A stretch of DNA of 64,000 nt from the human T2T-CHM13v2.0 reference genome, Homo sapiens. The DNA lies in NCBI RefSeq assembly GCF_009914755.1, contig NC_060925.1, one strand, 5' to 3'. Under the pieces are notes generated by a model that saw only the letters and a list, made by a program, of their open reading frames with translations, did not search any database and was not told the origin of the DNA. How positions within the stretch are numbered: position 1 is the first letter of the stretch; every line of letters starts with the position of its first letter. Shown here in pieces: positions 48,411 to 51,099 of the stretch. A program made the position numbers and the translations under genes.

Positions 48411-49658
48411 TAAGTGAGAACATTGAGTGCCAAACCACTTCTTACAATTACTACACGTGCATCTCTTCAACTAAATTATTGTGGAAAGCATATACATAAG
48501 ATTCCCAGAAGTAAGGGAAAGAAACAAAAACTATTAATATTCTTTCTTCTTTATTCTTCTTCTCTGTAGAAAACTGTTTCCTCATAAAACTGAATTACTT
48601 ATCTTTTGGGAAAGACACAATAAAGTTACCTCTCAGAAGTCTTAAATATTCATGGAGTAATTCATATGACTAATGTAATAATTTATAATTATTTTTAGCA
48701 ATGATTTTTTCTGAATAGTAAATTTATTCAACAATCTCAAGCCCTGTTTATATACATATGAAGTGAAATTGTCTTCTAAATATTCCCAAAGGAATGGTTT
48801 GGACAGATGCATGAAAATAAGAAAGACATATGGGAGATGTGTGGAGAGGAGGGGGGGTAAGCCTTTCTATATGAGTAACCTGTTACCTATACATTTAACC
48901 TCAGGGCTGCATGTGTAGGTTTTAAAATCACATAAAAACTTGTCAATTCAATTAGATTATACAAATATTCATTGTGGTAAAACAATGTCCTAGTAATATG
49001 TTTAAATAAATATGATATAGCTCTTATATTCAATTAGCTTATGATTTTAATTGGGACCGCTATGAATGTACCAGTGGTATATTATTAGGAAAAATAAGTT
49101 AAGCACCATTAAATATGATGGATGTATCATGGTGGTTCAAAGCAGTGTGAGATCATATATGGCTGATTATATATGGTTGATGGTTAGAAAGTTTTAAGAT
49201 ATTTTATATGTTGCCATTCTGAAGATCAGTTCCATCTCTGTTGGGACTAACTATATATATTGAAGTACAGTTGACTCTTGAACAACATGGGTTCGAATGA
49301 CACTGGTCCACTTGTATGTGAATTTTATTCTGTCTCTACCACCCCTGAAAGAGCAAAGCAACTGCTCTTCTTCCTCTTCCTCTTCAGCTTACTCAATGTG
49401 AAGACGAGGATAAAAACCTTTATGATGATCCACTTCCACTTAATGAATAGTAAATATATTTACTCTTCCTTGTGATTTTCTTAATAACCTTTTTTCTTTA
49501 TTGTAAAAATACTGTATACTGTAAGAATACTGTATATGATACATAATACATATACAAAATATGTGTTAATCAACTCTTTGTGTTATTGGTAAGGCTTCAT
49601 GTCAACCATATGCTATTAGTAGTGAAGTTTTGGGGGAGTCAAAAATAATAGATTTTTC

Positions 49659-50101
49659 TTTTTTTAATTTATTATTATTATACTTTAAGTTTTAGGGTAC
49701 ATGTGCACAATGTGCAGGTTAGTTACATATGTATACATGTGCCATGCTGGTGCGCTGCACCCACTGACTCGTCATCTAGCATTAGGTATATCTCCCAATG
49801 CTATCCCTCCCCCCTCCCCCCACCCCACAACAGTCCCCAGAGTGTGATGTTCCCCTTCCTGTGTCCATGTGTCCTCATTGTTCAATTCCCAACTATGACT
49901 GAGAATATGCGGTGTTTGGTTTTTTGTTCTTGCGATAGTTTACTGAGAATGATGATTTCCAATTTCATCCATGTCCCTACAAAAGATATGAACTCATCAT
50001 TTTTTATGGCTGCATAGTATTCCATGGTGTATATGTGCCACATTTTCTTAATCCAGTCTATCATTGTTGGACATTTGGGTTGGTTCCAAGTCTTTGCTAT
50101 T
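49659..50101 (-). mobile_element. Young 5'-truncated L1 (L1PA2/3-like), ~440 bp
   Basis: ttatactttaagttttagggtacatgtgcacaatgtgcaggttagttac, ggtgcgctgcacccact, gagaatatgcggtgtttgg; ORF2 C-terminal peptide MIDWIKKMWHIYTMEYYAAIKNDEF. Confidence 0.96.
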
Positions 50102-50102
50102 T

Positions 50103-50213
50103 AAAGTTTTTTTTTTTTTTTTTTTTTTAATCAATGTTGACCAGGTTGGCCTCGAACATGTAGCCTTGCCTCCCCGAGTGCCAGGGCAACCAGTCTGAGC
50201 TGCAGAGGCTCCC
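50103..50213 (-). pseudogene. Retroposed snaR-family-related small RNA (CAS/ASR-like, Alu-left-monomer-derived), 85 nt + A22 + CTTT
   Basis: Sense strand GGGAGCCTCTGCAGCTCAGACTGGTTGCCCTGGCACTCGGGGAGGCAAGGCTACATGTTCGAGGCCAACCTGGTCAACATTGATT-A22; B box GTTCGAGGC; resembles snaR GGAGCC..GGCTCAGGCCGGTTG..GTTCGAGGCCAGCCTGGTC as recalled. Confidence 0.8.
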
Positions 50214-51099
50214 GATACTTAGATTTTTCAACTCCACAGGAGGTTGGCATTTCTAAGCTTCACGTTGTTTAAAGGTCAACTGTGCTGCCAAAAACAACAA
50301 ATGTTATGGAAATTGGTAAGTTTTAATATGTAAATTTATTCATATTTTTCTAAATATTGTTTCTTACAGTGATCAGTGCATTGGTTGCCCTTGCCTTAGT
50401 CTTTCCTTCTTCTGGCTTGATCCCATGAAAGCCAGATGTACATCTCTGTGCTTACGCCTCTGCATCACAGGAGAGGAATCCCAAAATATGAATACGGCAG
50501 CTGATATATGTTGCCCCTTTCCTCTCCTGAGAGAGGGACATATCTCCATACTACAAATTCTCCCTGGAAGGAGAAGAGAAAAACCCCTGGCTTCCTACCA
50601 TTGAAATGTAAACAGATAAATGTCCAAAAGAGGATGATAAGTGTCTCTGGCTTTACATATTCTGGACCGTCTTCAAGGTTCCTAGTTTTATTCTCCTTTT
50701 AGAGACAAACTCATAATTCCAGAAATACAAATCTCTTCAGAGTTGTCAATACCTCTTCAGTCATCTTTTAATTTCCAGGGTTTGTCCATTAACCAAAGTT
50801 CCAGTGAAATTTACTAATAAAGCCTTAACCATGCAGAGACATAAAAAAGATTTCCTGTAAAATCATCAAGCTCTGAGATGAAAGAAAACAGCATAAATTT
50901 TTTCCTTAGTGATTAAATGATAGTTGAGTAGTATCAGATATCTTCAGGCCACTCATTTTATAAATAAATCTGGGACAAAAGAGAAAAAAATAATCCCATC
51001 ACATTCTCCCAGTCTTTATCATGGGATCATTCAGTCTTCTCTACTTACCATTAATAGTTGGAAATTCTTAAAGTGAATTTTAGTTTCTTTTTTGAACAA

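What the first reader, a model, noticed from the sequence alone, without database searches (positions are those of the whole stretch)
49649..50229. Candidate snaR-ancestor (CAS/ASR)/L1 chimeric retrogene keeping a Pol III-type 3' end
Seen: on the minus strand the order is GAAAAATCTAAGTAT-C, then an 85-nt GC-rich element with an intact B box (GTTCGAGGC), then A22-CTTT-A, then a 5'-truncated young L1 starting AATAGCAAAGACTTGG and running to its A-rich tail, then GAAAAATCTA(----)T. One direct repeat (10 bp exact, TAGATTTTTC at 49649-49658 and 50220-50229; ~15 bp if a 4-bp slip is allowed) brackets both parts, at a TT/GAAAAA L1-endonuclease-like site inside Tigger2a. I see no separate TSD around the L1. 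Established: snaR RNAs descend from the Alu left monomer via ASR and CAS and end in oligo(A) then oligo(U). U6/L1 chimeras are a complete Pol III RNA ending in Ts joined to a 5'-truncated L1 within one TSD, explained by template switching or RtcB RNA ligation. Inference: this is the same architecture with a CAS-like RNA as the 5' partner. Ordinary SINE TPRT primes in the A-tract and loses the terminal U's, so the retained CTTT suggests whole-RNA capture and would preserve the 3' end of the source transcript. I do not recall this partner being described in such chimeras, but I cannot search the literature.
Basis: partly seen in the sequence, partly recalled or inferred. Interest (0 to 1): 0.82.

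Follow-up and report, generated by a model that had tools for sequence, protein, structure and literature searches.

The report
CAS small-RNA copy fused to L1
An 85-base relative of the snaR RNA genes sits head-to-tail with a truncated L1 inside a single target-site duplication; it was most likely pasted in as one chimeric copy, a new partner for an already known kind of event.

Summary
On the minus strand the order is: a 15-bp direct repeat, one C, an 85-nt CAS element with its B box at +57 to +65, A22, CTTT, one A, a 443-nt L1 3' end, and the repeat again with a 4-bp gap.

The 85-mer is CAS. It is not ASR, snaR or ordinary Alu.

The one-event chimera reading is favoured but not shown (about 0.6).
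- For: one TSD encloses both parts, only one base separates the T-run from the L1, and the CAS 5' end is complete.
- For: two other family copies have a T-run joined directly to a full-length Alu inside one TSD. In one of them (L005) the T-run is the Pol III terminator of an identifiable source copy (L012).
- Against: 4 of 40 ordinary family copies also keep internal T-runs, so CTTT alone proves nothing.
- Against: the CAS body differs from its family consensus at 8 of 85 sites, the L1 from its nearest relatives at 6 of 425. Six of the eight CAS changes cluster in 15 nt.

The rival is a later L1 insertion into a two-part CAS tail (about 0.3). Ape and monkey orthologous sites would decide; no primate genome was available.

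Alu/L1 and small-RNA/L1 chimeras are already catalogued. I found no CAS partner in print.

The parts
50215..50229 (-). 5' copy of the target-site duplication, GAAAAATCTAAGTAT. It is preceded by TT, giving the L1-endonuclease-like site TT/GAAA.
   Evidence: It is native host-repeat sequence by alignment with 29 family copies.
50214..50214 (-). A single C between the TSD and GGGAGCC. It is not target sequence and is probably the first base of the RNA.
   Evidence: The host-repeat alignment has no C here. The snaR-A model begins with two C's before GGAGCC.
50129..50213 (-). Full-length 85-nt CAS (catarrhine ancestor of snaR) body. It differs from the family majority at 8 sites, 6 of them at positions 8-22.
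   Evidence: (40 family matches, best 90-91%). The Rfam snaR-A hit is weak (E 0.0067, 25.6 bits against a cut-off of 98) and skips the snaR-specific expansions.
50149..50157 (-). Pol III B box GTTCGAGGC at +57 to +65 of the element.
   Evidence: Parrott et al. give the same position for CAS (PMC3045588, passages read).
50107..50128 (-). Uninterrupted A22 tract.
50102..50106 (-). CTTT plus one A. Read as the Pol III terminator remnant (C-UUU) of the source transcript, plus one extra base at the joint.
   Evidence: By analogy: snaR-A genes end in A6-GGA(C)-T8-9, the parental-type locus L040 ends in A10-TTTT, and L005 carries the terminator of its source L012.
49659..50101 (-). 5'-truncated L1 3' end with a short tail (443 nt). 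It differs from the majority of its 12 nearest genomic copies at 6 of 425 columns and keeps 4 of 4 CpGs.
49648..49658 (-). 3' copy of the target-site duplication, GAAAAATCTA then T, lacking 4 bp of the 5' copy.
49530..49647 (-). Host DNA-transposon-like repeat downstream of the insertion (Tigger2-like by recall).
   Evidence: (1715 first-look candidates, 40 scored, 80-88% identical to the query).
50230..50282 (-). The same host repeat upstream of the insertion, from its CAGTTGACC terminus.

Best explanation
This is a single L1-mediated retrotransposition event that made a chimeric retrocopy.

Proposed steps:
1. L1 ORF2p nicked the host repeat at TT/GAAAAATC and primed on the poly(A) of an L1 mRNA.
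2. It copied the last ~443 nt of the L1.
3. It then continued onto the 3' end of a complete Pol III transcript of a CAS gene (body, A22, C-UUU, perhaps one added A). This happened either by template switching or because the two RNAs had been ligated beforehand.
4. It ran to the CAS 5' end, and the product was sealed with a 15-bp target-site duplication.

The CTTT is the terminator remnant of the source gene. That source was probably a daughter CAS copy whose A-tail was followed by CTTTT, and it is no longer recognisable in this genome.

Shown: the anatomy, CAS membership, the single TSD, and the family precedents.
Inferred: that the two parts arrived together, and the joining chemistry.
For: At this locus:
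- One 15-bp TSD encloses both parts, and its 5' copy is proven native by the host-repeat alignment.
- No separate repeat of 4 nt or more flanks the L1.
- Only one base lies between the T-run and the first L1 base.
- The CAS 5' end is complete.
- Only 7 A's follow the L1's AAATT. A sibling L1 copy (L102) has the same AAATT followed by 8 A's as its own tail. That leaves little room for the remains of a second CAS A-tract, which the nested model needs.

Family precedents:
- L005 carries CAS, tail, then a 16-nt stretch ending in TTTT. That stretch, plus 7 tail A's before it, matches the 3' TSD and flank of another copy, L012, at 22 of 23 positions. L005 and L012 also share two body variants (T6, G10). 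The TTTT abuts a full-length Alu with no base between, and the whole is inside a 17-18-bp TSD.
- L029 has A11-TTT joined directly to a full-length Alu inside an 11-nt repeat with one mismatch.
- L014, L023 and L025 have 2, 5 and 2 A's between the T-run and the Alu, each inside one repeat (L025 read by eye).
- In total 6 of the 40 family loci examined are such composites, counting the window's own locus.

Source 3' ends:
- Source-type genes do end in A(n) followed by a T-run. All 30 snaR-A loci do, 9 of them with a C before the T's, and so does L040.

Published criteria:
- The layout meets four of the five published features of LINE chimeras. The fifth (random truncation sites) cannot be judged from one locus (PMC2104539, Background passage).
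Against: Divergence:
- The CAS body differs from the majority of 19 other classical CAS copies at 8 of 85 sites. It is tied 14th-15th of 20 copies, whose counts range from 1 to 13.
- The L1 differs from the majority of its 12 nearest copies at 6 of 425 columns and keeps 4 of 4 CpGs, while the CAS lost 4 of 7.
- Fisher tests: non-CpG sites 4/71 against 6/417, p = 0.044; CpGs p = 0.11.
- The 12 L1 comparators were the best 12 of 40 scored hits, so the L1 figure is biased low.

Source copy:
- No copy in this genome shares the private CAS changes (best 90-91%), so the diverged source the model needs is not found.
- Four of the changes lie in the A-box region (+11 to +22). That would be awkward in an active source.

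Other points:
- 4 of 40 ordinary copies have A(n)-T(n)-A(n) before their TSD. So a T-run can be internal to a normal tail, and its T/A border is an ideal L1 endonuclease site.
- The locus is not in Table S4 of Law and Burns. The sorted chr1 rows jump from 100.06 to 107.02 Mb. 'FLAM' and 'snaR' occur nowhere in their four tables.

Mitigating:
- 6 of the 8 CAS changes fall within 15 nt (p = 0.004-0.007 under three null models).
- Outside that cluster the CAS has only 2 CpG transitions in 63 nt. Even decay therefore does not describe the excess.
Confidence: 0.6

Rival explanations
1. Two events. An ordinary CAS retrocopy with a two-part tail (A22-CTTT-A(n), like L007's A13-CCTT-A10) inserted first and made the 15-bp TSD. 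Later an L1 inserted at the T/A border of that tail in the same orientation, with a TSD of only 1-3 A's.
For: - The CAS body looks older than the L1: 8/85 against 6/425 differences, and CpGs lost 4/7 against 0/4.
- Two-part tails exist in 4 of 40 ordinary family copies.
- CTTT followed by A's is a textbook TTTT/AA endonuclease site on the other strand.
- Tails of this family often carry later-looking insertions, for example L035 (A21 then Alu) and L037 (A15-TT-A14 then Alu).
- The locus is absent from the Alu/L1 chimera table of PMC13174262.
Against: - It needs an L1 TSD of at most 1-3 nt, whereas the norm is 7-20 (recalled).
- It needs the second A-tract and the L1 poly(A) together to have left only 7 A's, although the neighbouring A22 survived intact.
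- The excess CAS divergence is a 15-nt cluster rather than even decay.
- L005 and L029 show that in this family T-runs abut the next element with zero bases between, which nesting does not predict.
Confidence: 0.3
2. Two events with filler DNA. The L1 inserted into a plain CAS A-tail, its TSD hidden among the A's, and CTTTA is untemplated filler at the L1 5' joint.
For: Extra bases at the 5' joints of truncated L1s are known (recalled). Up to 7 A's on each side could hide a TSD.
Against: A 4-5-nt filler that happens to mimic a C + T-run terminator is unlikely, given that L007, L014, L005 and L029 carry similar T-runs at the same place in the tail.
Confidence: 0.04
3. A copy of a pre-existing composite. 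CAS and an L1 fragment were already adjacent at another locus and were transcribed and retrotransposed, or duplicated, as a unit.
For: CTTT has only three T's and would not stop Pol III efficiently (general knowledge).
Against: - None of the other 39 family loci has an L1 after its tail.
- A T4 run about 150 nt into the L1 part (TCTTTTG) would stop Pol III before the L1 end.
- The precise CAS 5' end argues against a Pol II read-through transcript.
Confidence: 0.04

Closest known systems
CAS retrotransposon family (catarrhine ancestor of snaR; Parrott et al., NAR 2011, PMC3045588)
   Same: About 85 nt, B box at +57 to +65, followed by an oligo(A/T) tract, flanked by a TSD, intergenic. It has the deletion that separates CAS from ASR and lacks the two snaR expansions.
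   Different: The 3' TSD copy lies beyond a 443-nt L1, not directly after the tail. The A-box region carries a cluster of changes. I could not check whether this chr1 locus is among the 24 human CAS loci of that paper, because its supplementary data are .doc and .pdf files that cannot be read here.
Alu/LINE-1 chimeric insertions (452 loci; Law and Burns, Cell Genomics 2026, PMC13174262)
   Same: An Alu-lineage Pol III RNA, full-length and in sense orientation, upstream of an L1 3' end, bounded by a TSD of 7 bp or more at an endonuclease-like site (section 12 read).
   Different: The partner is the 85-nt CAS monomer rather than a dimeric Alu. A terminator-type T-run is retained at the joint. 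The locus is not in their Table S4, and contemporaneous arrival has not been shown here.
U6/L1 chimeric pseudogenes (Buzdin-type; Doucet et al. 2015, PMC4476161; Moldovan et al. 2019, PMC6789731)
   Same: A complete Pol III transcript ending in U's, joined in sense to a variably 5'-truncated L1 inside one TSD.
   Different: U6 ends in a 2',3'-cyclic phosphate that RtcB can ligate (passages read). Nothing is known about the 3' end chemistry of CAS or snaR. CAS also has an internal A-tract, so unlike U6 it can retrotranspose on its own.
7SL/L1 and other small-RNA/L1 chimeras (tRNA, Y, 7SK, 28S; PMC13174262, section 11)
   Same: The same class of event with a related RNA: CAS descends from 7SL through Alu.
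   Different: Those types number from a few to 21 loci each. CAS and snaR are not among them: 'snaR' occurs 0 times in the text and tables.

Membership tests
CAS (catarrhine ancestor of snaR) | About 85 nt excluding the oligo(A/T) tract | tested here: met
   85 nt, 50213-50129. It aligns without gaps to the other CAS copies.
CAS (catarrhine ancestor of snaR) | Type 2 Pol III B box at +57 to +65 | tested here: met
   GTTCGAGGC lies at exactly +57 to +65. The position is taken from PMC3045588.
CAS (catarrhine ancestor of snaR) | A box at +11 to +22 | tested here: inconclusive
   The region is present but carries 4 changes from the family majority (positions 12, 13, 20, 22). No promoter model was run.
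CAS (catarrhine ancestor of snaR) | Lacks the ~13-nt 3' segment that ASR retains (delta2) | tested here: met
   ASR copies L032-L035 carry the extra segment before their A-tail and the window copy does not. Identity to them is 64-67 of 85, against 76-77 of 85 to four CAS copies.
snaR genes | Two internal expansions (epsilon1, epsilon2) and the gathering score of Rfam RF02556 | tested here: not met
   25.6 bits against a cut-off of 98. The alignment skips the expansion segments and shows two large gaps against snaR-A.
Ordinary Alu or FLAM fragment | A better match to an Alu left arm than to CAS | tested here: not met
   60-61 matches, broken into 9-11 blocks, against four Alu left arms taken from loci in hand. 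No FLAM consensus was available.
LINE-made chimeric retrogene (criteria in PMC2104539) | The 5' part is a full-length copy of a cellular RNA | tested here: met
   The CAS starts at its family 5' end and runs through the A-tract to a terminator-like T-run.
LINE-made chimeric retrogene (criteria in PMC2104539) | The 3' part is a 5'-truncated LINE, joined directly in the same orientation | tested here: met
   The L1 starts 443 nt from its end, with one base between the parts, on the same strand.
LINE-made chimeric retrogene (criteria in PMC2104539) | The whole is flanked by one short direct repeat | tested here: met
   15-bp TSD with a 4-bp gap in the 3' copy.
LINE-made chimeric retrogene (criteria in PMC2104539) | Both parts arrived in one event (empty site in outgroups, parts always together) | not testable with these tools
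   No primate genome or alignment is held here. The internal age comparison is equivocal.
U6/L1-type RtcB ligation product | The 5' partner ends in a 2',3'-cyclic phosphate and the L1 fragment has a 5'-OH | not testable with these tools
   This is RNA end chemistry and sequence cannot show it (PMC6789731).

The most novel reading that the evidence does not exclude
CAS-family RNAs are Alu-derived Pol III transcripts that end in A(n)U(n). The reading is that they spread to a notable extent as 5' partners of chimeras, with whole primary transcripts, terminator U's included, captured behind an Alu or L1 that was being reverse-transcribed.

The window locus would be the L1-partner case. It would preserve the 3' end of a lost CAS source transcript. 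L005, copied from L012, would be the proof of principle with an Alu partner.

Small-RNA/Alu chimeras are described as very rare (PMC4476161, passage), so 2 to 5 such loci among 40 would be unusual.
Probability: 0.45. Interest if true: 0.5.

Novelty: new member of a known kind. Interest (0 to 1): 0.38.

Why it matters
If the parts came in together, the locus records the full primary transcript of a CAS source gene (5' end, A-tract, terminator). It also adds the snaR ancestor lineage to the RNAs that L1 can recombine with.

Together with L005 and L029, it suggests that a U-tailed Alu derivative often relied on hitch-hiking rather than on its own A-tract. That bears on how Pol III RNAs without a terminal poly(A) reach ORF2p, by template switch or by ligation.

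If the L1 is a later nested insertion, the locus is ordinary.

Tried and rejected
Searches that failed or were invalid:
- Coordinate phrases in the Law and Burns tables found nothing. A positive control with a row known to exist also found nothing. Those two negatives are therefore void, and I read the sorted table directly instead.
- Only Table S4 part 1 was read. Tables S2 and S3 were searched by word only ('FLAM', 'snaR', both 0).
- The Parrott supplement, which lists the human CAS loci, their TSDs and their orthologues, is unreadable here.
- Buzdin 2003 (PMC169886) is not held. Its content is cited only through PMC2104539.
- Several literature calls failed on term format and were resent.

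Not done:
- The L1 subfamily was not assigned by any tool. 'L1PA2-3-like' rests on 1.4% divergence and on recalled calibration.
- Whether the composite is transcribed was not examined.

Rejected readings:
- The element as ASR, snaR or a plain Alu fragment.
- CAS inserted after the L1. There is no CAS-only repeat, and the CAS is not the younger part.
- The other Rfam hits in the region (snoR128, SNORD18, SNORD52, E 2-5, far below cut-offs) are chance.
- D3 as an L1 TSD. It is an A-run match that does not abut the L1.

Limit met:
Only 12 L1 comparators were fetched afterwards.
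Full report
**What is there**

Read on the minus strand, the order is:
- host repeat ending in TT;
- GAAAAATCTAAGTAT (50229-50215);
- C (50214);
- an 85-nt GC-rich element (50213-50129);
- A22 (50128-50107), CTTT (50106-50103), A (50102);
- an L1 3' end from AATAGCAAAG (50101) to ...AAATTAAAAAAA (49659);
- GAAAAATCTA then T (49658-49648);
- host repeat.

The exact 10-nt repeat is family D6. It is the only one of nine repeat families in 49500-50400 that lies at both outer junctions.

A genome search with the L1 part matched other L1 copies from query base 8 onward. 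The alignment shows those copies reading CAC before AATAGC. So the L1 starts at 50101 and a single A separates it from CTTT.

**The target-site duplication**

I aligned both flanks with 29 other copies of the host repeat. These were the loci fetched from the 40 scored hits among 1715 first-look candidates. The family keeps 14 nt between TC and GAC. The window restores that spacing only if the 5' copy's TAAGTAT is followed by the 3' flank's TATTTTTGAC. The duplication is therefore 15 bp, the 5' copy is native target sequence, and the 3' copy later lost 4 bp. The site TT/GAAA resembles an L1 endonuclease site.

**What the 85-mer is**

- A search of the window's own genome gave 40 scored matches out of 47 candidates. 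The best, apart from the window itself, were 90-91% identical.
- Their flanks and the body alignment show three groups: ~85-nt elements followed by A-tails and TSDs, elements with an extra ~13 nt (L032-L035), and snaR-like copies.
- This matches the CAS, ASR and snaR series of Parrott et al. (PMC3045588; abstract and passages read). They describe CAS as ~85 nt with a B box at +57 to +65 and an A box at +11 to +22, ASR as carrying ~13 more bases at the 3' end, and snaR as having two internal expansions.
- The window element has GTTCGAGGC at exactly +57 to +65.
- It matches four CAS copies at 76-77 of 85 without gaps, and four ASR copies at 64-67 of 85. It matches four Alu left arms at 60-61 in 9-11 blocks, and snaR-A at 67 with two large gaps.
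- Rfam's snaR-A model scores 25.6 bits (E 0.0067, cut-off 98) and skips the expansions.

It is a CAS copy.

**The 3' ends of source genes**

- All 30 snaR-A loci fetched end in A6-GGA followed by T8-9. Nine have a C before the T-run.
- L040 is a CAS-like remnant at chr19:53.69 Mb. By eye, its downstream flank resembles the snaR-A flank. It ends in A10-TTTT.
- So transcripts of this lineage end in oligo(A) and then oligo(U), as Parrott et al. state for snaR. A-tract, C, TTT is therefore a believable RNA 3' end.

Among the 40 family loci, four ordinary copies keep T's inside the tail directly before their own TSD:
- L007: A13-CCTT-A10
- L015: A11-TT-A12
- L016: A10-T-A12
- L027: A12-TTT-A5...

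A retained T-run therefore does not by itself imply capture of a whole RNA by an L1. A tail of this kind also offers a perfect TTTT/AA nick site for a later insertion.

- **L005 (chr10).** It carries CAS, a tail, then a 16-nt stretch ending in TTTT. The TTTT abuts the first G of a full-length Alu, and the whole lies inside a 17-18-nt TSD. That 16-nt stretch, plus 7 tail A's before it, matches the 3' TSD and flank of L012 (chr8) at 22 of 23 positions. L005 and L012 also share two body variants, T6 and G10. So L005 copies a Pol III read-through transcript of L012 up to its terminator, fused to an Alu with no base between.
- **L029 (chr19).** A11-TTT abuts a full-length Alu inside an 11-nt repeat with one mismatch.
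- **L014, L023, L025.** They have 2, 5 and 2 A's between the T-run and the Alu, each inside one repeat. For L025 I read the repeat by eye, because the script proposed other candidates.
- **Count.** With the window locus, 6 of the 40 family loci examined are composites of this type.
- **Unresolved.** L019, L035, L037 and L039 have an Alu at or near the tail, but I could not resolve them.

A nested insertion should leave a TSD of 7-20 A's between the T-run and the incoming element. The observed gaps are 0, 0, 1, 2, 2 and 5.

Doucet et al. describe small-RNA/Alu chimeras as rare (PMC4476161, passage).

**Relative age of the two parts**

- Against the majority of 19 other classical CAS copies, the window body has 8 changes in 85: 4 CpG transitions and 4 others. 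It is tied 14th-15th of 20 copies, whose counts range from 1 to 13.
- Against the majority of its 12 nearest genomic copies, the L1 has 6 changes in 425 columns and keeps 4 of 4 CpGs. Those 12 were the best of 40 scored hits from 2385 candidates, so the L1 figure is biased low.
- Fisher tests: non-CpG sites 4/71 against 6/417, p = 0.044; CpGs 4/7 against 0/4, p = 0.11.
- This points to an older CAS or a diverged source. No copy in this genome shares the private changes.
- However, 6 of the 8 changes lie at positions 8-22. Clustering is significant under all three null models: p = 0.007 (uniform), 0.007 (CpG-weighted) and 0.004 (family-weighted).
- The other 63 nt carry only two CpG transitions. 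The excess is a local cluster, not even decay, so the age argument is weak in either direction.

**The L1 tail**

The L1 ends in AAATT followed by 7 A's. Sibling copy L102 ends in AAATT followed by 8 A's before its own flank. The 7 A's can therefore all be L1 tail. The nested model must also fit the right-hand TSD copy and the rest of a second CAS A-tract into those 7 A's, while the A22 nearby stayed intact.

**Weighing the models**

- One-event chimera: about 0.6.
- Later L1 insertion into a two-part CAS tail: about 0.3.
- Filler DNA at the L1 joint, or a copy of a pre-existing composite: the remainder.
- Template switching and prior RNA ligation cannot be told apart from sequence. The RtcB route needs a cyclic-phosphate end (PMC6789731), which is unknown for CAS and snaR.

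**What is already known**

- The layout meets four of the five published features of LINE chimeras: a full-length 5' RNA, a 5'-truncated LINE, a direct sense joint, and flanking repeats. The fifth, random truncation sites, cannot be judged from one locus (PMC2104539).
- Law and Burns list 452 Alu/L1 chimeras and new 7SL, Y, 7SK, tRNA and 28S partners (PMC13174262, sections 11, 12 and 40 read).
- 'snaR' and 'FLAM' occur 0 times in their text and in their four tables.
- Their Table S4 has no chr1 row between 100.06 and 107.02 Mb.
- A full-text search for snaR together with LINE-1, chimeric and retrotransposition gave 3 papers, none on this topic by title or abstract.
- A CAS partner therefore appears not to be in print within these searches. 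It would be a new member of a known kind.

**Limits**

- No primate genomes were available, so co-arrival is untested.
- Repeat family names are recalled, not given by a tool.
- The Parrott supplement was unreadable.
- Searches are void, because the control failed.

Noticed in passing
L005 (G000:C10:64135324-64135424 and about 330 nt downstream) and L012 (G000:C8:17762387-17762493): A source-daughter pair. L005's CAS carries L012's 3' TSD and flank up to the Pol III terminator (22 of 23 positions match) and shares two body variants with L012. It is fused with no base between to a full-length Alu, inside a 17-18-nt TSD. This is a 3' transduction by a CAS copy combined with a CAS/Alu chimera.
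   Followed up: partly
L029 (C19:56.095 Mb), L014 (C1:40.138 Mb), L023 (C7:45.721 Mb), L025 (C10:37.767 Mb): Four more CAS-family copies have A(n), a T-run, 0-5 A's and then a full-length Alu in the same orientation, each composite inside one direct repeat of 9-11 nt.
   Followed up: partly
L007, L015, L016, L027 (ordinary copies); L037 (snaR-like, C19:49.656 Mb): Their tails have the form A(n)-T(1-3)-A(n) directly before the TSD. This fits transcripts that kept part of the terminator U-run and then received an added A-tail before target-primed reverse transcription.
   Followed up: no
window 50192-50206 (positions 8-22 of the CAS body): Six of the eight differences from the CAS majority fall in 15 nt covering the A-box region (p = 0.004-0.007). 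The cause is unknown. It could be a multi-base event, damage near the last-copied end of the cDNA, or chance.
   Followed up: partly
L013 (C12:100.306 Mb), L036 (C6:33.044 Mb), L038 (C3:65.751 Mb): These CAS-family copies have no A-tail and are followed directly by their TSD. L038 is also 3'-truncated. L013 and L038 sit in antisense Alu sequence. They resemble the tailless or 3'-truncated small-RNA pseudogenes described for snRNAs.
   Followed up: no
L040 (G000:C19:53695397-53696045): A rearranged CAS-like remnant ending in A10-TTTT. By eye, its downstream flank resembles that of the snaR-A genes, so it probably lies in the parental repeat locus near snaR-F.
   Followed up: no
L019 (C22:38.717 Mb): Between the CAS tail and a downstream Alu lies CAACATTGGTT, a near-repeat of the CAS 3' end. 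This could be the trace of a second template jump.
   Followed up: no
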